Assembly (NCBI GenBank): GCA_047834405.1
Contig: CP181263.1
Span: forward strand, 1,494,618-1,558,617
DNA: 64,000 nt
Reading direction: 5' to 3'
From: Eubacteriales bacterium
Lineage (GTDB): Bacteria > Bacillota > Clostridia > Oscillospirales > Acutalibacteraceae
Under the pieces are notes generated by a model. The model searched no databases, was not told the origin of the DNA, and saw nothing but the letters and a program-made list of their open reading frames with translations. Shown piece by piece: positions 2,821-55,600 of this stretch (position 1 is the first letter of the stretch; the number at the start of each line of letters is the position of its first letter). A program made the translations under genes and the position numbers.

Positions 2821-4101
2821 TTACGATAATGCCTGGTTAAGGTCATAAAGCAAATCGTCGATGTGCTCGGTGCCGATGGAAAGGCGGATGGTGTTTGGTT
2901 TAATACCGGACTGAAGCAGTTCGCTTTCCGTCATCTGGGAGTGCGTGGTGCTCGCCGGATGGATGACCAGCGATTTAACGTCGGCCACATTGGCAAGCAG
3001 GGAGAAAATCTGGAGCCGGTCAATAAAATGCTTCGCTTCCTGTGCGCCGCCCTTAATCTCGAAAGTAAAGATCGAACCGGCGCCGTTCGGGAAATATTTC
3101 CGATACAGGGTATGGTACGGGCTGTCGGGCAGGGACGGATGGTTCACGCGTTCCACCCTCGGATGCTTCGAGAGAAAGTCAACGACCTTTAAAGCGTTTT
3201 CCACGTGCCGCTCAACGCGGAGGGAGAGCGTTTCAAGCCCCTGCAGGAGCAGGAAGGAATTGAACGGGCTGATCGTCGCCCCGGTGTCCCTCAGCAGGAT
3301 TACGCGGATGCGCGTTACGAACGCCGCGGCTCCAACGTCCTTGGTAAAGCGGATTCCGTGGTAGCTGGGGTCCGGCTCGCTCAGCCACGGGAATTTTCCG
3401 GAAGCCTCCCAGTCGAATTTCCCGGAGTCCACGATTACGCCGCCCAGGGACGTGCCGTGCCCGCCGATGAATTTCGTTGCCGAATGCACCACGATATCCG
3501 CGCCATGCTCAATGGGGCGGAGAAGATACGGGGTTGCGAAGGTATTGTCCACAATCAGCGGGATGCTGTGCTTGTGCGCGACGGCGGCAACCGCGTCCAT
3601 ATCCACAAGGCTGGAATTCGGGTTGCCGAGTGTCTCGATAAAAACCGCCTTTGTGTTTGGGCGTATGGCGTTTTCAAAACTGTTTTCCTTGTCAGCGTCA
3701 ACAAAGGTCGTGTGGATTCCGAAAGCTGCAAGCGTATGCTCCAGCAAATTATATGTACCGCCGTAGATGGTGTTTGCGGAAACGATATGGTCACCCGCGT
3801 GTGCTAAGTTCTGAATGGCATAGGTAATGGCCGAAGCCCCCGAAGCGGTTGCAAGGGCGGCGACGCCGCCTTCCAGCGCGGCTACACGCTGCTCGAATAC
3901 GTCCGAGGTGGGGTTCATCAGCCTGCTGTAAACGTTGCCCGTCTCGGCTAAGCCAAAGCGGTTGGCGGCCTGCGCGCAATCCTTGAATACGTAAGAGGTG
4001 GTCTGGTAAATCGGTACGGCCCTTGCGTCCGTCGCCGGATCGGGCTTTTCCTGCCCCGCATGTACCTGTAAGGTTTCAAATTGATATTTTCTGCCGTTCA
4101 T
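2821..4101 (-). CDS. metY: O-acetylhomoserine aminocarboxypropyltransferase (OAH/OAS sulfhydrylase)
   Basis: Motifs [32 protein letters not shown]-lysine motif [11 protein letters not shown] and [21 protein letters not shown]. Confidence 0.93.
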
Positions 4102-6244: not shown

Positions 6245-6934
6245 CTACATTCCAATCAGTTTCTTTACAATAAAATAGAGAAAAGGGAGAAAAAGGGCCG
6301 GCAGCATATTGCCGACCTTTATTTTTTTGATTTTCAGCATATTCAGGCTGATCGCTATGATTAACACGCCGCCGATCGCCGTAATTTCCCGGATCATTTC
6401 CGCTGACAGGAGCGATTTTAGGGACGAAGCCAAAAGGGTGATGGTTCCCTGATAGAGCAGGATTACGGCGGCGGAAAAAATGACGCCAACGCCCAGCGCC
6501 GAGGTGAGGAAGACGGCACAGATTCCGTCCAGTATTGATTTTGCGAAAAGCGTCTGATGGTTCCCGGTAAGGCCGCTTTCGATGGAACCGACAATCGACA
6601 TGGAGCCGACACAGAAAATCAGGCTGGCGGTTACAAAGGCTTTTGCAACCCCGCCGTCTGAACGGGAGGTCCGGCGCTCGATTATTCTGCCGAGGCCCTC
6701 GAGCCGGTCCTCGATTTTCAGCGCTTCCCCGATTATGCTGCCGACGGCCATGCAGGTAATCAGCAGAAGCAGATTATTGGCTTTGACCGCGCTTATAATG
6801 CCGATCAGCAGCACCGAAAGGCCAATCGCATTCATTATGGTTTCCTGATAGTTTTCCCGGATTCCGCTTTTTAAAACCAGCCCCAAAGCGGTTCCCGCCA
6901 CTACCGCAAGCGCGTTTACAATCGTTCCCAGCAT
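6245..6934 (-). CDS. DUF554 family membrane protein
   Basis: Motifs MLGTIVNALAV, LIFCVGSMSIVGSIESG and AKSILDG. Confidence 0.88.
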   Translation of the reverse strand: MLGTIVNALAVVAGTALGLVLKSGIRENYQETIMNAIGLSVLLIGIISAVKANNLLLLITCMAVGSIIGEALKIEDRLEGLGRIIERRTSRSDGGVAKAFVTASLIFCVGSMSIVGSIESGLTGNHQTLFAKSILDGICAVFLTSALGVGVIFSAAVILLYQGTITLLASSLKSLLSAEMIREITAIGGVLIIAISLNMLKIKKIKVGNMLPALFLPFLYFIVKKLIGM

Positions 6935-7164
6935 ATCCTTCCGACTTCCCATCCGTTCATGTGTTTTTTATGATATATCAATTCGCGTTTCGATGTCAAT
7001 AAGGTTTCCTTTTTATTTGCGGCATTTCCAAAAGACGCCGTGAAAACCATTTGCTTTCTTCCCTTTCCGCAGGCCCGGGAATACCGCCCTGCCTTTCAGT
7101 TTTTATTTAAAATTGCAATAGGGTATGGTATGATATGTTTATCAGTCAGGGAGGTGTCGGCGTA

Positions 7165-10100
7165 GTGAATAAGACGGTGATTAAGGCGTTTGCAACCAAT
7201 GCGAGAAGGAAGCTCATTGCGTCGGTCTCCCAAAGGATTACGGACAATATCGGCAGCGGAAAACCGATTGCCGAGCTTGCGGCGGACCTTGCGGAAAAGG
7301 GGTTCGACGCCGTCGCGGAGGAAGTGTCCTATATCTGGTTTAAACGGATTGTCGGCGTTCGTTTTATGGAAGTCAACGGGTATCTGCCCGGCGGCGTGCG
7401 CGTGCTGTCTTCGGAACATCCGGGGCAGGTTCTTCCGGATATTGTTGCCGCCGCGCCGCAGAAGGAAAAAACCGACGCGCTTTTTACCTCGCTGTTTATC
7501 GATTGCTGCCGTTCCCTTGCTGAAATCCTGCCGGATTATTTTGGGAGTGCATGCGGGTATCTGGACGCTCTGCTGGAACTGTCCTTTCAGGATAAAAACG
7601 GGATTGTCCGAAGGCTGGTCGACGGTATATCCGAAGAGGATTTCCGCGAAGCGGTTGAAATCGTCGGCTGGCTGTACCAGTACTATAACGATGACCGGAA
7701 AAATGCAGTAACCGGCTTGAACGGCGGGCGGGTAAAACGTGAGGATGTCCCCGCCGCGACCCAATTTTTTACGACCGACTGGATTGTGCGCAGCATGGTT
7801 GACAATTCGCTCGGCAGATACTGGCTGGAACGCCACCCCAAAAGCCCGTTGAAGGAGAAGCTTCTCTATTATCTGGGGGGCGGGGAGGAAGCGGCGGGAC
7901 AGGAGATTTCCCCGCAGGAAATAAAAATCCTCGACCCCTGCATGGGCAGCGGGCATATCCTGGTTTATGCCTTTGAAATACTGGTTGAAATATACGGGGA
8001 ATGCGGCTATTCGGCTTATGACGCCGCCGAGCAGATCCTTCGCCATAACCTTTACGGCCTTGATGTGGACCAGCGTTCGTATGAATTGGCTTATTTTGCC
8101 CTTTTTATGAAGGCGAGAAGCTATAACGCGGATATTTTTACAAGGAAAATACCGCTCAATCTGTTTCCAATTCAGGAAAGCAACGGAATCAGCGAAGAAT
8201 TGCTTTCCTTTGTGGCTGACGGGGATAAAGAATTGCAGGAGGATTTGCAAAGCTTAACGGCTTCTTTTCGGGACGCCAAAGAATACGGAAGCCTGATTTC
8301 GGTCGGTTCCCTGCATTTTGACCGTATTGACCGGCGTGTGGAAAAAATTCGCCAAGAGGAATACGGTTTGTCCTGCCCGGCCCTCCGGGAGGATACGCTG
8401 AAAAAGCTCCTGCCGCTTATCCGACAGGCGCGGGCAATGGCGGGAACCTATCCGGTTGTGGCGACAAATCCCCCGTATCTTTATAAGATGAATCCGAAGC
8501 TGAAAGCGTATGTCAACCGCCACTATCATGCATATGCCGGCGATTTGTTTGCGGTGTTTTTATACCGTAATTTCGGATTCTGCACAGAAAACGGGTATTG
8601 CGCGTTTATGTCCCCGTTTGTGTGGATGTTCATTAAAACGTATCAGAAATTAAGGGAATACATCCTCCGGGAGAAATCCATATCTTCCCTTATCCAGTTG
8701 GAGTACTCCGCGTTTGAGGAAGCGACCGTGCCGGTCTGCACCTTTGTCCTGAAAAACGGGCCCGAGACGAGGCCGGGCATTTACTTAAGGCTGTCCGATT
8801 TCCGCGGCGGTATGGAGGTGCAGAAGCAAAAGGCAATCGAAGCCTCCCGGAACCCCCGGTGCCCTTACCGCTATGAAACACCGGCGGCTCGCTTTACCAG
8901 AATCCCCGGAATGCCGATCGCGTATTGGGCGGACAGGGAATACAGCGAAATATTCCTCAATACCCCCGGTATCGGCGCGTACGCTGCCGTAACCAACGGG
9001 CTTTTTACCTGTAACAATAAACGCTTCCTGCGCTATTGGTTTGAGGTGCCGCGCGAAGAAATCCATTTTCATTGCTCCGGCAGGGAGGACTGTGAAAAAA
9101 GTCCGCTGAAATGGTATCCCTACAATAAAGGCGGCGGATTTCGGAAATGGTACGGCAATCAGGAGTATGTCGTGAATTTTCAGAATTTCGGGGAGGAAAT
9201 CAGCAAATACCGGGTGCAGTCCGGACAATCCGCGGTTTTCCCCGGGCAGGACTATTATTTTTTACCGGGTATTTCCTGGTCTTTCGTCAGTTCATCCAGA
9301 TTCGGCGTGCGTTATTATCCCGGCGGCTTTGTGTTTGATATTGCCGGTTCCTCGGTTTTTATGAAGCGCAGGGAGGATGTCCTTTACACGCTGGGCTTTT
9401 TGTCCAGCAAATGCGCGTTTGCGATGCTGAATTTAATCAATCCGACGTTGAATTATCAGGCTGGGAACATTGCGCAGCTTCCGCTCCGCATTGACGAAAG
9501 CGTAAAACCCCGGATTGACGCGCTTGTCCGCGAAAATATTGCGATTTCCAAAGCGGACTGGGATTTTTCCGAAACAAGCTGGGGTTTCGAAACGCACCCG
9601 TTTGTAAAGTTTCAGTCCGGAAGCGGGAAAATAGCAGATGCTTATGCCGCGTGGAAGGAATACGCGGAGCGCCGGTTTCAGCGTCTGAAGGAAAATGAAG
9701 AAGAAATTAACCGGATCTTTATCCGGATATATGGTTTGCAGAACAATCTGAGCCCGGAGGAGGAAGAACGGGACATTACCGTCCGCCGCGCCGCGCTTGC
9801 CCGGGACACCCGAAGCTTCCTCCATTTTGCGGTCGGTTGTGTCTTCGGCCGTTTTCCTGTGCCGGGCTACCATACCGATGTTACGGATACGGTGCCGATT
9901 TGCGGCGAGATACCGGATGACCTTGTAGCAAGGGTGGTTGCTTTCGTCCGGTGCGTGTTTGGAAAGGCGTCCCTGCAGGAAAATCTGGAATTCCTTTCCT
10001 CCGCTCTGGACGGCAGCGGCAGCCCTCTGGAAAAGATACGGGCGTATTATACGTATTCCTTTTACCAGGAGCATTGCAGGCTGTATAAAAAAAGGCCGAT

Positions 10101-10407
10101 CTATTGGCTTTTTAACGGCGGCGGGTGCAGGGTGCTTTGCTATATGCATTCGTATCACGAAGATACCCTTTGCAACGTGCTGGGCTATTTTAAGGAAGCC
10201 CGGCTGCGGCTGGAAAAAACGCTCAACCGCGGGGGCACCAAAGGGAAATCAGCGGCGCGGGTGAAACGGCTCCGCCGGCTGGAGCAGTACGAAGGGAGGC
10301 TGGAAAAGGCTGCTTCCGCCCACATCCGGCTGGACTTGGACGACGGGGTATTGTATAATTACAGCAAAATTCAAAACGGACAGAACTTGCTTCCGCCCTT
10401 AAAATAA
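7165..10407 (+). CDS. pglX: BREX-1 type adenine DNA methyltransferase PglX (BrxX), solitary
   Basis: PglX signatures EEVSYIWF.R...RFMEVNGYLP, ATQFFTTDWIVRSMVDNSLGRYW, motif I ILDPCMGSGHIL, motif IV NPPY, YNKGGGFRKWYGN, KRPIYWLF and LDLDDGV. GTG at 7165 follows GGGAGGTG. Confidence 0.88.
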   Translation: MNKTVIKAFATNARRKLIASVSQRITDNIGSGKPIAELAADLAEKGFDAVAEEVSYIWFKRIVGVRFMEVNGYLPGGVRVLSSEHPGQVLPDIVAAAPQKEKTDALFTSLFIDCCRSLAEILPDYFGSACGYLDALLELSFQDKNGIVRRLVDGISEEDFREAVEIVGWLYQYYNDDRKNAVTGLNGGRVKREDVPAATQFFTTDWIVRSMVDNSLGRYWLERHPKSPLKEKLLYYLGGGEEAAGQEISPQEIKILDPCMGSGHILVYAFEILVEIYGECGYSAYDAAEQILRHNLYGLDVDQRSYELAYFALFMKARSYNADIFTRKIPLNLFPIQESNGISEELLSFVADGDKELQEDLQSLTASFRDAKEYGSLISVGSLHFDRIDRRVEKIRQEEYGLSCPALREDTLKKLLPLIRQARAMAGTYPVVATNPPYLYKMNPKLKAYVNRHYHAYAGDLFAVFLYRNFGFCTENGYCAFMSPFVWMFIKTYQKLREYILREKSISSLIQLEYSAFEEATVPVCTFVLKNGPETRPGIYLRLSDFRGGMEVQKQKAIEASRNPRCPYRYETPAARFTRIPGMPIAYWADREYSEIFLNTPGIGAYAAVTNGLFTCNNKRFLRYWFEVPREEIHFHCSGREDCEKSPLKWYPYNKGGGFRKWYGNQEYVVNFQNFGEEISKYRVQSGQSAVFPGQDYYFLPGISWSFVSSSRFGVRYYPGGFVFDIAGSSVFMKRREDVLYTLGFLSSKCAFAMLNLINPTLNYQAGNIAQLPLRIDESVKPRIDALVRENIAISKADWDFSETSWGFETHPFVKFQSGSGKIADAYAAWKEYAERRFQRLKENEEEINRIFIRIYGLQNNLSPEEEERDITVRRAALARDTRSFLHFAVGCVFGRFPVPGYHTDVTDTVPICGEIPDDLVARVVAFVRCVFGKASLQENLEFLSSALDGSGSPLEKIRAYYTYSFYQEHCRLYKKRPIYWLFNGGGCRVLCYMHSYHEDTLCNVLGYFKEARLRLEKTLNRGGTKGKSAARVKRLRRLEQYEGRLEKAASAHIRLDLDDGVLYNYSKIQNGQNLLPPLK

Positions 10408-10421
10408 AAGGTGAGGTTGTA

Positions 10422-11063
10422 ATGATCAAAGCAGTAATATTTGATATGGACGGCACAATGTTTAATACGGAACGCGTCAAGATGCAGGCTTGGGAAAAAG
10501 CCGGAAAAGAGCTTCATTGCGCGGATGGTCATGAAATCTACGCGCAGCTTATGGGATTCACCTACGAATATGTGGAAAAAGCATTCAAAGAAACCTATGG
10601 CAAGGATTTCCCTTATGAGGACTTTATCAAACTCGGCACCAAATACTTCAAGGAATACCTTGCGGAAAATGGGGTTCCGGTGAAAGAGGGGCTTTACACT
10701 TTATTGGATTATCTGAAGGATAACGGCTATAAAATAGCGGTTGCAACCTCCACACAGAGGGAAACCACGCTGCACCATTTGAAAAGCACGAATACGCTTT
10801 CGTACTTTGATTCGATTGTGTGCGGGGATATGCTGGAAAAAAGCAAGCCGGACCCGGATATTTATCTGAAAGCGGCGGCCTCGCTTCGGGTTTCGCCCGC
10901 GGAATGCATGGCGGTTGAAGATTCCCTCAACGGAATCACCTCGGCTTACCGCGCAGGCATGAAAACGGTAATGGTTCCGGATATGGTGAAGCCTAATCCG
11001 GAACTGAATAAAATGCTGTATGCCTGTGTTAAAACGCTGGACGAGATCATCCCGATCTTATAA
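10422..11063 (+). CDS. HAD family phosphatase (beta-phosphoglucomutase-like)
   Basis: Motifs IFDMDGT, VATST, KPDPDIY and VEDS. Confidence 0.9.
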   Translation: MIKAVIFDMDGTMFNTERVKMQAWEKAGKELHCADGHEIYAQLMGFTYEYVEKAFKETYGKDFPYEDFIKLGTKYFKEYLAENGVPVKEGLYTLLDYLKDNGYKIAVATSTQRETTLHHLKSTNTLSYFDSIVCGDMLEKSKPDPDIYLKAAASLRVSPAECMAVEDSLNGITSAYRAGMKTVMVPDMVKPNPELNKMLYACVKTLDEIIPIL

Positions 11064-11088
11064 AAAAGCTGCCAGTTTTCTGGCAGCT
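11062..11088. terminator. Terminator between convergent genes
   Basis: AGCTGCCAG/CTGGCAGCT stem with a flanking A run. Confidence 0.7.
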
Positions 11089-17087: not shown

Positions 17088-17115
17088 TTGACATTTTATT
17101 GGATTATGATAGAAT
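17088..17115 (+). promoter_or_regulatory. sigA promoter for riboswitch-ppa
   Basis: TTGACA-N16-TAGAAT with an extended TG. Confidence 0.7.
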
Positions 17116-17122
17116 AATTACT

Positions 17123-17209
17123 GGGAATGAAGTTCTCCCATAGCGAATGCTAAAATTGCTTTTTAAGCTGATGACTTCTGTGGCATACACAGCAGGCATC
17201 AGCTTTTTT
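17123..17209 (+). ncRNA. Fluoride (crcB) riboswitch with overlapping intrinsic terminator
   Basis: GGGAATGAAGTTCTCCC...GCTGATGACTTCTG matches the crcB aptamer layout (P1 GGGA/UCUCCC, pseudoknot GAAGU/ACUUC). GCTGATG/CATCAGC-TTTTTT forms the terminator. Confidence 0.88.
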
Positions 17210-17257
17210 GTTTACTCCGGGGAGCGGGGAAGAGGTGCGTCTTCGTTTGAAGGAGTT

Positions 17258-17821
17258 ATGAATAAAAATATTGGAGGGGTGTTTTTGAACATTTGGCACG
17301 ATATTTCCAAAGAAAGAATCCAGACAGACGATTTTTGCGCGGTCATTGAAATTCCAAAGGGCTGTAAAACCAAATATGAGCTTGATAAAAGTACGGGAAT
17401 GCTCTATATGGATCGAATTCTTTATACTTCCGCACATTATCCCGCAAATTATGGGTTTATTCCGCGCACGATAGCGGAAGACCACGATCCTCTGGATGTT
17501 CTTGTGCTCTGCACCGAGGATATACAGTCTCTTTCTCTTGTTCGGTGTCGCCCGATCGGTGTCATTGCCATGCTGGACAGCGGTTTTGTGGATGAGAAAA
17601 TTATTGCTGTTCCCTTTCATGACCCTACCTATAATGCCTATCACGACATAACGGAGCTGCCGAACCATGTGCTTGAAGAAATGTCGCACTTTTTCTCCGT
17701 GTACAAGCAGCTTGAAGGAAAAGCCACGGCTGTTGAGCATATCCGGAACGCGCAGGAAGCGAAAAAGATCATACGGGTATGCATTGAAAGATATGAAAAA
17801 GAGTATGGCGCAAAAGAATGA
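17258..17821 (+). CDS. ppa: Inorganic pyrophosphatase, family I
   Basis: Motifs VIEIPKG..TKYELDK, DRILY, YPANYGFIP and DHDPLDVLV. Alternative TTG start at 17285. Confidence 0.93.
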   Translation: MNKNIGGVFLNIWHDISKERIQTDDFCAVIEIPKGCKTKYELDKSTGMLYMDRILYTSAHYPANYGFIPRTIAEDHDPLDVLVLCTEDIQSLSLVRCRPIGVIAMLDSGFVDEKIIAVPFHDPTYNAYHDITELPNHVLEEMSHFFSVYKQLEGKATAVEHIRNAQEAKKIIRVCIERYEKEYGAKE

Positions 17822-19947: not shown

Positions 19948-20021
19948 TGCGGAATTGTGTAAGGGTAGCACGACAGACTCTGACTCTGTTTGTGAGGGTT
20001 CGAATCCTTCTTCCGCAGCCA
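19948..20021 (+). tRNA. tRNA-Gln(CTG)
   Basis: Cloverleaf: TGCGGAA/TTCCGCA acceptor, ACAGA-CTCTGAC-TCTGT anticodon arm, GGTTCGAATCC, encoded CCA. Confidence 0.95.
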
Positions 20022-20046: not shown

Positions 20047-20123
<77 letters not shown>

Positions 20124-55537: not shown

Positions 55538-55600
55538 GCCCAGGTAGCTTAAGTAGAGCGTTGGTAATCAAAGGCGTCGGTGCGAATCCGTCTATGGGCA
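55538..55600 (+). ncRNA. tRNA-like structure (degenerate/pseudo-tRNA, Thr(GGT)-like)
   Basis: GCCCA/TGGGC acceptor, GCTT/GAGC D-stem, TTGGTAA, CGG-TGCGAAT-CCG T-arm. Anticodon arm is shortened and there is no CCA. Confidence 0.55.

What the first reader, a model, noticed from the sequence alone, without database searches (positions are those of the whole stretch)
7165..10407. Orphan BREX PglX methyltransferase in a housekeeping neighbourhood
Seen: a ~1080-aa PglX with intact SAM-binding (DPCMGSG) and catalytic (NPPY) motifs and a target-recognition-like region. It is flanked by DUF554 and a HAD phosphatase, with no brxA/B/C, pglZ or brxL nearby and no mobility genes. Established: in type I BREX, PglX is the specificity and methylation subunit, and methylation is generally reported to need other Brx proteins. 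Inference: a domesticated solitary methylase (epigenetic role or protection from incoming BREX), a spare specificity subunit for a BREX locus elsewhere, or a decaying remnant.
Basis: partly seen in the sequence, partly recalled or inferred. Interest (0 to 1): 0.62.

Follow-up and report, generated by a model that had tools for sequence, protein, structure and literature searches.

The report
Lineage-fixed solitary BREX-type DNA methyltransferase
This is an intact DNA methyltransferase gene of the kind normally built into the six-gene BREX anti-phage system. It has been inherited alone, at one housekeeping spot, through a whole clade of Caproiciproducens species, so it looks like a defence part converted into a stand-alone methylase.

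Summary
Window 7165-10407 (+) encodes a 1080-aa BREX type 1 PglX/BrxX with invariant SAM-binding and NPPY motifs, between DUF554 and a HAD hydrolase.

"Orphan" needs qualifying. The same single-contig genome has a complete BREX-1 operon about 631 kb away, with its own 1244-aa PglX (39% identical).

The window gene does not depend on that operon.
- Thirteen of 20 species genomes of the genus carry a full-length orthologue (58-94% identity) at the same position.
- Carriers form one clan (100/100) and the gene tree matches the tree of the flanking genes.
- Ten of the 13 have no PglZ or BrxC anywhere. The five of these ten that were checked for BrxB lack it too.
- dN/dS is 0.08-0.17.

Non-carriers have DUF554 and HAD adjacent, with no remnant. 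The gene sits between the old HAD promoter and the HAD ribosome-binding site.

The pattern of constraint is the reverse of BREX-linked PglX. The target-recognition domain is the best conserved part, and the N- and C-terminal domains are the least conserved. The N-terminal β-sheet segment and both Asp of the C-terminal metal site are lost.

Best reading: a domesticated, probably autonomous m6A methyltransferase of fixed specificity. Activity is untested. The scan has noted similar solitary PglX lineages on other DNA.

The parts
6245..6952 (-). DUF554 membrane-protein gene, the left boundary of the insertion site, transcribed divergently
   Evidence: Pfam DUF554, 270 bits. It lies directly next to HAD in non-carrier genomes.
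7106..7134 (+). Promoter-like site (TTTAAA/TTAAAA, 16-17 nt spacer, TATGAT with TG extension) inside a conserved block. In non-carriers the homologous block lies upstream of HAD.
   Evidence: Consensus scan. The block TGTCAATAAGATTAACTTTT...TATGGTATGATA (with small variations) is upstream of pglX in most carriers; related versions of it are upstream of HAD in the non-carriers G160, G166, G162 and G156. Function as a promoter is inferred.
7149..7154 (+). Ribosome-binding site GGGAGG, 10 nt before the GTG start
   Evidence: Sequence. A purine-rich, Shine-Dalgarno-like stretch sits at this position in the orthologues.
7165..10407 (+). Solitary short PglX/BrxX gene (1080 aa plus stop)
   Evidence: Family scores. 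AF2 model with pLDDT 88. Foldseek TM 0.86-0.87 to Salmonella PglX 8c45/8q56.
7165..7653 (+). N-terminal domain (residues 1-163), all-helical. It lacks the roughly 31+8-aa segment that aligns with the region where E. coli BrxX has its three-stranded β-sheet, and a further 18-aa segment.
   Evidence: Alignment deletions. The model shows only helices H3-30, H36-45 and H47-70. E. coli domain definitions are from PMC11842806. Boundaries were transferred by alignment and are approximate.
7654..8901 (+). Methyltransferase domain (residues 164-579), with motif I DPCMGSG (7933-7953) and motif IV NPPY (8467-8478)
   Evidence: Motif core residues invariant in 74 sequences. T199, Q200, N435 and Y438 align with the E. 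coli BrxX SAM/adenine contacts T243, Q244, N508 and Y511. dN/dS is about 0.10.
8902..9510 (+). Target-recognition domain (residues 580-782), the most conserved domain within the clade
   Evidence: Mean pairwise identity 0.73, against 0.43 in BREX-linked PglX at the same overall divergence. dN/dS 0.07-0.12.
9511..10404 (+). C-terminal domain (residues 783-1080), trimmed. The PDxDN metal-site segment is lost, and this is the least conserved domain.
   Evidence: Identity 0.50, against 0.67 in BREX-linked PglX. dN/dS 0.16-0.29.
10422..11063 (+). HAD-family hydrolase gene, 14 nt downstream with its own RBS (GTGAGGTT). It is a pre-existing housekeeping gene, now the second gene of the operon.
   Evidence: Pfam HAD_2, 139 bits. 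Present in carriers and non-carriers alike. No terminator-like site lies in the 14-nt gap between pglX and HAD.
11067..11088 (.). Hairpin just after HAD; the scan lists it on both strands, with a clear T-run only on the - strand
   Evidence: Consensus scan: 9-bp stem with 6 GC pairs. A terminator role for the + strand operon is inferred.

Best explanation
An ancestor of one Caproiciproducens subclade captured a single pglX (brxX) gene derived from a type 1 BREX system. The gene landed in the 5' untranslated region of a housekeeping HAD hydrolase gene, between that gene's promoter and its ribosome-binding site. Since then it has been inherited vertically as the first gene of a pglX-HAD operon, whether or not the genome holds a BREX system.

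It most likely now works as a stand-alone, SAM-dependent N6-adenine DNA methyltransferase. It would mark one fixed, probably short and asymmetric, motif across the chromosome, in the manner of a persistent orphan methylase with an epigenetic or housekeeping role. Specificity would be held constant, because the target-recognition domain is the most conserved part.

The N- and C-terminal domains are proposed in the literature to dock BrxC and PglZ and to keep BrxX inactive on its own. Here they are under relaxed constraint and have lost the N-terminal β-sheet segment and the C-terminal metal site.

Shown: identity, fold, motifs, distribution, synteny, insertion site, selection and the domain pattern. 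Inferred: catalytic autonomy, the kind of motif, the physiological role, and use of the HAD promoter.
For: Identity and fold.

Independence from BREX: 13 of 20 genus genomes carry a full-length orthologue. Only G000, G155 and G163 also have PglZ and BrxC. Five BREX-less carriers also lack BrxB. Two of the BREX-less carriers are single-contig genomes that are 98-100% complete.

Vertical inheritance: the gene order is identical in 11 genomes. Carriers form one clan with 100/100 support and one change, and the PglX tree matches the flanking-gene tree.

Clean insertion: non-carriers have DUF554 and HAD 150-270 bp apart with no remnant. The same promoter-like block lies upstream of HAD in non-carriers and upstream of pglX in carriers, and the HAD RBS is kept after the pglX stop codon.

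Selection: dN/dS is 0.075-0.167 for the whole gene. By domain it is about 0.10 for the methyltransferase and recognition domains, and 0.08-0.30 (mostly 0.15-0.30) for the terminal domains.

Reversed constraint: domain identities in the short clade are NTD .57, MTD .69, TRD .73 and CTD .50. In BREX-linked PglX at equal overall identity they are .66.64.43 and .67. Columns at least 90% conserved in canonical PglX but lost in the clade: NTD 15%, MTD 4.7%, TRD 0%, CTD 19%.

Catalytic and SAM-contact residues are kept in all members. The clade nests inside BREX-linked PglX when the tree is rooted on distant homologues.

Literature: E. coli BrxX alone is inactive, and its NTD, CTD and MTD insert are proposed cis-inhibitory or partner-docking elements (PMC11842806). 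A persistent PglX-like methylase with an assigned m6A motif is reported in Haloterrigena (PMC10609329).
Against: There is no methylome, expression or biochemical evidence.

Characterised type 1 BrxX proteins do not methylate without BrxB, BrxC and PglZ. Most of the NTD, the CTD and the MTD insert are still present here.

In E. coli BrxX, SAM binding and the NPPY tyrosine are needed for DNA binding itself. Conservation of these motifs therefore does not prove methyl transfer.

The structural losses are not unique to solitary copies. Some BREX-linked PglX have an N-terminal linker only 7 residues longer, and about a quarter lack the two metal-site Asp.

Pairwise comparisons within clades are not independent.
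Confidence: 0.6

Rival explanations
1. It is a SAM-dependent, sequence-specific DNA-binding protein that no longer methylates, or never methylates alone. It would be kept for a role that needs site recognition only, such as a regulator, a nucleoid factor or a sensor.
For: E. coli BrxX binds its site with SAM and flips the adenine into the NPPY pocket without methylating when it is alone (PMC11842806). The same conserved motifs and the frozen recognition domain would be expected under this reading too.
Against: No effector or regulatory domain has been gained. The whole catalytic pocket is invariant across 74 sequences. Persistent solitary methyltransferases with assigned motifs are the commoner precedent, including a PglX-like one (PMC10609329).
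Confidence: 0.2
2. It is one component of an undescribed system whose partner genes are encoded elsewhere in the carrier genomes. These partners would replace BrxB, BrxC and PglZ in activating it.
For: BREX-family and MANTIS methyltransferases all need ATPase partners for activity (PMC11842806; bioRxiv 10.64898/2026.09.23.753747). I could not run whole-genome phyletic profiling.
Against: No candidate gene was gained with it. Its neighbours on both sides are present in non-carriers too. No PglZ or BrxC is present in the 10 BREX-less carriers, and no BrxB in the five checked. The regions proposed to dock partners are exactly the ones under relaxed constraint.
Confidence: 0.12
3. It is a spare or alternative specificity subunit that plugs into the BREX complex encoded 631 kb away.
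For: This genome has a complete BREX-1 operon. Extra pglX copies next to BREX are known as phase-variation cassettes (own knowledge of Goldfarb et al. 2015; also PMC9881135, listed but not read).
Against: Ten of the 13 carriers have no BREX. BREX occurs equally often in carriers (3/13) and non-carriers (2/7). The nearest relative, G152, has the gene (94% identical) but no BREX. The two PglX proteins are only 39% identical. There are no shufflon-type repeats. The N-terminal sheet segment and the C-terminal metal site are lost.
Confidence: 0.05
4. It is a decaying remnant of a lost BREX locus.
For: It is a single BREX gene with several internal deletions compared with canonical PglX.
Against: The frame is full-length and free of stops in 13 species. 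dN/dS is 0.08-0.17 even where dS is 0.16-0.9. The same deletions are shared by all members, so they are old and fixed. No other BREX relics lie at the locus.
Confidence: 0.02

Closest known systems
BREX type 1 PglX/BrxX (E. coli HS BrxX, PDB 9ewz/8zek; Salmonella PglX, PDB 8c45/8q56)
   Same: The four-domain architecture is shared (TM 0.77-0.87). The NCBIfam score is twice the cut-off. The SAM pocket and NPPY are identical. The clade nests among BREX-linked PglX in the tree.
   Different: There are no brx or pglZ partners in most carrier genomes. The position is a fixed housekeeping locus, not a defence island. The segment aligned to the E. coli N-terminal β-sheet and the C-terminal DxD metal site are lost. 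The recognition domain is the most conserved part of the protein instead of the most variable.
Persistent (lineage-conserved) orphan DNA methyltransferases, including the PglX-like HG5 group of Haloterrigena (CTGGAG m6A; PMC10609329)
   Same: A solitary methyltransferase conserved through a taxon and under purifying selection, with apparently fixed specificity.
   Different: Most known persistent orphans are small Type II enzymes with 4-5 bp palindromic sites. This one is a 1080-aa BrxX-type protein whose characterised relatives cannot methylate alone. Its motif and activity are unknown. The passages I read on the Haloterrigena group do not say whether it is partner-less.
Streptomyces coelicolor PglX (BREX type 2 / Pgl)
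   Same: A PglX that methylates in vitro without its partners. Drobiazko et al. cite it as support for the idea that the BrxX terminal domains are inhibitory.
   Different: According to that paper, the Streptomyces protein lacks the BrxX-type N- and C-terminal domains altogether and still sits in a Pgl operon. The window protein scores only 17 bits on the BREX-2 model and keeps trimmed versions of both domains.
Type IIL/IIG enzymes (MmeI) and the orphan methylase CamA
   Same: A gamma-class N6-adenine methyltransferase core followed by a recognition domain (Foldseek hits).
   Different: TM scores normalised to the query are only 0.37-0.41. There is no nuclease domain. Pfam MmeI_Mtase scores just below its cut-off (26.8 against 27).

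Membership tests
BREX type 1 PglX/BrxX | Sequence match to the curated family model above its cut-off | tested here: met
   NF033452 scores 1045 bits (cut-off 500), but only profile positions 59-1209 are matched. PADLOC PglX scores 1124 bits.
BREX type 1 PglX/BrxX | Four-domain BrxX fold (NTD-MTD-TRD-CTD) | tested here: met
   AF2 model with pLDDT 88 and pTM 0.79. Foldseek TMq 0.86-0.87 to 8c45/8q56 and 0.77-0.85 to E. coli BrxX.
BREX type 1 PglX/BrxX | SAM-binding motif I and catalytic motif IV (NPPY) | tested here: met
   DPCMGSG at 257-263 and NPPY at 435-438 are conserved in all 74 aligned sequences.
BREX type 1 PglX/BrxX | Encoded in an operon with brxA, brxB, brxC, pglZ and brxL | tested here: not met
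   The flanks are DUF554 and HAD. Ten of 13 carrier genomes have no PglZ or BrxC anywhere, and no BrxB in the five tested. By contrast, about 59 of 63 non-clade homologues had BrxC and/or PglZ within 3 kb.
BREX type 1 PglX/BrxX | N-terminal three-stranded β-sheet after helix 1 (E. coli BrxX structure) | tested here: not met
   A 31+8-aa segment is deleted in 13/13 clade members and the model has no strands before residue 255. That this segment is the β-sheet is inferred from its position after helix 1. Some BREX-linked PglX also have a short linker, so this feature is not strictly defining.
BREX type 1 PglX/BrxX | C-terminal metal-binding site (E. coli D997, D999, D1012, Y1113), described as highly conserved | tested here: not met
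   Both DxD Asp are present in 0/11 clade loci and 0/4 other solitary loci, against 44/59 BREX-linked loci. The equivalents of the D1012 neighbourhood and of the YW motif are partly kept.
BREX type 1 PglX/BrxX | [quoted passage not shown] | tested here: not met
   The TRD/MTD identity ratio is 1.06 in the clade and 0.68-0.69 in BREX-linked pairs at the same overall identity.
BREX type 1 PglX/BrxX | Methylation only within a BrxBCXZ complex | not testable with these tools
   This needs methylome or biochemical data.
Persistent orphan DNA methyltransferase | Solitary gene conserved at one locus through a taxon by vertical descent | tested here: met
Persistent orphan DNA methyltransferase | Purifying selection on the catalytic and recognition parts | tested here: met
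   dN/dS is about 0.10 in the methyltransferase and recognition domains.
Persistent orphan DNA methyltransferase | Demonstrated motif-specific methylation without partners | not testable with these tools
   No methylome data could be reached.
Type IIG/IIL restriction-modification enzyme (MmeI-like) | N-terminal nuclease domain fused to the methyltransferase | tested here: not met
   The N-terminal 163 residues are a helical BrxX-type domain. Pfam finds no nuclease domain.
DISARM class 1 DrmMI | Best match to the DrmMI model, with drm genes adjacent | tested here: not met
   DrmMI scores 659 bits against 1124 for PglX. The neighbours are housekeeping genes. The rest of the genome was not searched for drm genes.

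The most novel reading that the evidence does not exclude
This is a natural, partner-independent BrxX. Loss of the N-terminal β-sheet and the C-terminal metal-site hairpin would free the methyltransferase from its need for BrxB, BrxC and PglZ.
Probability: 0.35. Interest if true: 0.78.

Novelty: new variant of a known kind. Interest (0 to 1): 0.62.

Why it matters
How BrxX is switched on inside the BREX complex is an open question. The published structures show a catalytically poised pocket, yet the protein does not methylate alone. The authors of those structures could only speculate that the N-terminal domain, the C-terminal domain or the MTD insert is auto-inhibitory.

A BrxX-type protein kept under selection across many speciation events in genomes with no BREX partners is a natural experiment. 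It points to specific elements to delete or graft in E. coli BrxX: the β-sheet segment after helix 1 and the DxD metal-site hairpin.

It also shows a defence-system subunit being absorbed into the core genome under a housekeeping promoter. Finally, annotation pipelines label such genes "BREX-1 system PglX", which could wrongly suggest a defence system in these gut and fermentation Clostridia.

Tried and rejected
- **Misassembly or split operon:** rejected. The genome is one contig, and the BREX operon is complete with its own pglX.
- **Recent paralogue of the resident pglX:** rejected. The two are 39% identical with 16% gaps.
- **Mobile-element cargo, shufflon or phase variation:** only short, chance-level repeats; no flanking direct repeats. 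No mobility genes in the synteny block.
- **HAD as a functional partner acquired with the gene:** rejected. HAD is at the same place in non-carriers.
- **N-terminal shortening as a diagnostic of solitary PglX** (a lead from an earlier scan note): only partly upheld. The clade has the shortest linker (56 residues), but BREX-linked proteins with 63 exist.
- **Metal-site loss as a diagnostic:** suggestive (0/15 against 44/59) but not exclusive.
- **Literature on a Caproiciproducens methylome or on solitary PglX:** nothing relevant. One loosely worded search returned only irrelevant papers.
- **MANTIS/Gao_RL and DISARM membership:** considered and dropped, on model scores and the absence of partner genes.
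- **Motif prediction:** I did not try to predict the recognition motif from the recognition-domain residues; any guess would be unreliable.
Full report
**Observation**

The window holds an ORF at 7135-10407 (+). The start used by all extracted orthologues is GTG 7165. It is preceded by GGGAGG at 7149-7154 and gives a 1080-aa protein.

The protein scores 1045 bits on NCBIfam BREX_1_MTaseX (cut-off 500). Only profile positions 59-1209 are matched. It scores 1124 bits on PADLOC PglX, which is higher than on the Type IIG model (931) or DrmMI (659). Pfam finds Eco57I and N6_Mtase domains.

Motif I (DPCMGSG, residues 257-263) and motif IV (NPPY, 435-438) are present. The neighbours are DUF554 (6245-6952, -) and a HAD hydrolase (10422-11063, +).

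**The genome does contain BREX**

The window is positions 1,494,618-1,558,617 of a single-contig 2.53-Mb genome that is 99.3% complete. A second PglX, which matches the full profile, lies at about 867-871 kb, followed by PglZ.

The region at 860.8-875.3 kb reads brxA, brxB, brxC, two inserted genes (PADLOC PDC-M14A and PDC-M14B), pglX (1244 aa), pglZ and brxL. All have strong matches. The window gene is thus about 631 kb from a complete BREX-1 operon that has its own methyltransferase. The two PglX proteins are 39% identical with 16% gaps. They are not recent duplicates.

**A genus-wide, vertically inherited gene**

A database search found 12 close clusters (57-80% identity, 1070-1088 aa). Several are named Caproiciproducens. 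Identity then drops sharply to 47% or less for proteins of 1105-1230 aa.

In one genome from each of 150 genera of the family, only the same-genus genome had an orthologue-level hit. Among the 20 species genomes of the genus, 13 carry a full-length, stop-free orthologue at 58-94% identity. One of these is split across two contigs. Record titles identify the genus: C. galactitolivorans BS-1 (94%) and YR-4 (80%), C. faecalis (64%) and Caproiciproducens sp. R1 (65%).

PglZ (Pfam) and BrxC were found in only 5 of the 20 genomes:
- G000, G155 and G163, which carry the short gene;
- G161 and G162, which do not.

So 10 of 13 carriers have no PglZ or BrxC. These include two single-contig genomes and the nearest relative G152, which is 99% complete. 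The five carriers I tested also have no BrxB. BREX occurs in 3/13 carriers and 2/7 non-carriers. It is sporadic and unrelated to this gene.

Gene order is conserved in the eleven carrier genomes fetched: MscS, Cys/Met PLP enzyme, RlmI-like methyltransferase, orf135, DUF554, then pglX, HAD, orf168, orf147, FAD-dependent protein and orf339. Some of these genomes have gaps or short contigs in the outer genes. The PglX identity tracks that of its neighbours.

A maximum-likelihood tree of five flanking genes puts all carriers on one side of a branch, with 100/100 support and one change. The PglX tree has the same topology.

**The insertion site**

In the four non-carriers where both genes were found (G160, G166, G162 and G156), DUF554 and HAD are direct divergent neighbours, 150-270 bp apart. 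No pglX remnant is detectable by tblastn.

The non-carrier intergenic regions contain a conserved block of the form TGTCAATAA.ATTAACTTTT...TATGATATAAT, followed by the HAD RBS GCGAGGTT. In carriers, the homologous block (...TATGGTATGATA) lies about 30 nt upstream of pglX, and the HAD RBS (GTGAGGTT) follows the pglX stop codon.

The consensus scan reports a promoter-like site with a TG-extended -10 element at 7106-7134. It reports no terminator-like site in the 14-nt gap between pglX and HAD, and a hairpin right after HAD at 11067-11088.

I infer that a lone pglX ORF was inserted into the HAD 5' UTR and is now transcribed from the former HAD promoter as the first gene of a two-gene operon.

**Selection**

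Whole-gene dN/dS is 0.075-0.167 in ten pairs, including pairs where dS is far from saturated (0.16-0.9). Values by domain:

| Domain | dN/dS |
|---|---|
| Methyltransferase (MTD) | 0.07-0.12 |
| Target recognition (TRD) | 0.07-0.12 |
| N-terminal (NTD) | 0.08-0.30 |
| C-terminal (CTD) | 0.16-0.29 |

This rules out a decaying remnant.

**Structure and what has changed**

An AlphaFold2 model built from a 74-sequence alignment has pLDDT 88 and pTM 0.79. Foldseek finds Salmonella PglX (TMq 0.86-0.87) and E. coli BrxX (0.77-0.85) over the full length. CamA and MmeI score only 0.37-0.41.

The protein is therefore a true BrxX-type, four-domain protein. By alignment, T199, Q200, N435 and Y438 correspond to the E. 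coli SAM and adenine contacts T243, Q244, N508 and Y511 described in PMC11842806. T199, N435 and Y438 are invariant and Q200 is at least 90% conserved.

Compared with 61 canonical homologues, all 13 clade members share these deletions:
- 31 + 8 residues after helix 1. This is where E. coli BrxX has a three-stranded β-sheet, and the model shows only helices there.
- 18 residues later in the N-terminal domain.
- A C-terminal segment that includes the conserved PDxDN motif.
- 3 and 13 residues further on in the C-terminal domain.

PMC11842806 names D997, D999, I1001, D1012 and Y1113 as a metal site that is highly conserved among BrxX homologues. The equivalents of the first two Asp are lost in every clade member.

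**Reversed pattern of constraint**

Mean identity by domain, for pairs of sequences at about 62% overall identity:

| Set | NTD | MTD | TRD | CTD |
|---|---|---|---|---|
| Solitary clade | .57 | .69 | .73 | .50 |
| BREX-linked PglX | .66 | .64 | .43 | .67 |

The BREX-linked pattern matches the published statement that the recognition domain is the most variable part and the terminal domains are conserved.

I also counted columns that are at least 90% conserved in canonical PglX but changed or lost in at least 80% of the clade: 15% of such NTD columns, 4.7% of MTD, 0% of TRD and 19% of CTD.

In plain terms, specificity is frozen, catalysis is preserved, and the parts proposed to dock BrxC and PglZ or to restrain activity are drifting. 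These pair counts are not phylogenetically independent, and the canonical set was chosen by similarity to the query.

**Is this a general route?**

Among 78 related loci from one genome per species, nearly all non-clade homologues have BrxC and/or PglZ within 3 kb. Four do not: L077, L086, L102 and L109. Three of these sit among unrelated, non-BREX genes, and the L086 flanks gave no Pfam match.

Both metal-site Asp are present in none of these four and in none of the 11 clade loci, against 44 of 59 BREX-linked loci. L086 and L109 also have strongly trimmed N-terminal domains.

The association is not exclusive. About a quarter of BREX-linked proteins lack the Asp pair, and some BREX-linked proteins have an N-terminal linker only 7 residues longer than the clade's.

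In a FastTree rooted on distant homologues, the clade (support 100, stem length 0.30) nests inside a 99%-supported group of BREX-linked PglX. The solitary proteins L086 and L109 are flagged as having long branches, so their exact placement is unsafe.

The scan's notebook holds two earlier notes of solitary PglX lineages on other DNA (e1-2353178 and e1-1381120). I did not see their sequences.

**Interpretation**

The evolutionary statement is well supported. A BREX-derived pglX was captured once, fixed under a housekeeping promoter, inherited vertically, kept under purifying selection, and is independent of BREX.

The functional statement is inference. I rate "autonomous m6A methyltransferase of fixed specificity" at about 0.6.

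The main caveat is that characterised BrxX proteins do not methylate alone and use SAM and NPPY for DNA recognition as well. A non-methylating DNA-binding role (about 0.2) or dependence on unknown partners (about 0.12) therefore remains open. A role as a spare BREX subunit (about 0.05) or as a remnant (about 0.02) is poorly supported.

**Comparison with what is known**

The closest family is BREX-1 PglX/BrxX. The protein meets the sequence, fold and motif criteria. It fails on operon context, the N-terminal sheet, the metal site and recognition-domain variability.

Functionally it resembles persistent orphan methyltransferases. A persistent PglX-like group with a CTGGAG m6A motif is reported in Haloterrigena (PMC10609329), although the passages I read do not state whether it lacks partners.

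The held literature contained no description of a lineage-fixed, partner-less BrxX-type protein with these losses. I class the finding as a new variant of a known kind.

Noticed in passing
G000 genome 860.8-875.3 kb (L005:5843-20000, L132:73-2136): A complete BREX-1 operon with two extra genes (PADLOC PDC-M14A and PDC-M14B) inserted between brxC and pglX. PglZ and BrxC are absent from the nearest relative G152, so the operon is probably a recent arrival.
   Followed up: partly
L006:2317-3120, L006:3122-4348 and L006:9608-10834: Just downstream of the BREX operon there is a UzuA-like gene (PADLOC, 134 bits). There are also two ORFs of identical length (408 aa) about 6.5 kb apart, each with the same arrangement of overlapping ORFs, which may be a repeated, insertion-sequence-like element.
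   Followed up: no
window 2821-4101 (-): The Cys/Met-metabolism PLP enzyme gene is intact here and in more distant species. In the two nearest relatives only fragments were detected: 98 of 426 aa in G152 and 28 aa in G153. This suggests loss in those lineages.
   Followed up: no
window 17114-17187 (+): A fluoride riboswitch (Rfam RF01734, 41 bits) overlaps the listed start of the ORF at 17147-17821, so the true start of that gene is probably further downstream.
   Followed up: no
window 19948-20018, 20047-20120, 55538-55600 (+): Three tRNA genes were found by Rfam.
   Followed up: no
L077:1642-5085, L086:2929-6138, L102:2995-6597, L109:2983-6276: Four further PglX homologues from unrelated taxa have no BrxC or PglZ within 3 kb. 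All four lack the C-terminal DxD metal-site pair, and L086 and L109 have strongly trimmed N-terminal domains. L077, L102 and L109 have non-BREX neighbours; the L086 flanks gave no Pfam match.
   Followed up: partly
L060:3001-6243: In a metagenome-assembled genome labelled only 'Bacillota bacterium OH_PFB_158', an orthologue (57% identity) sits between DUF554 and orf147/FAD-dependent protein. No HAD or orf168 hit was found downstream, so the operon partner may have been replaced there.
   Followed up: no
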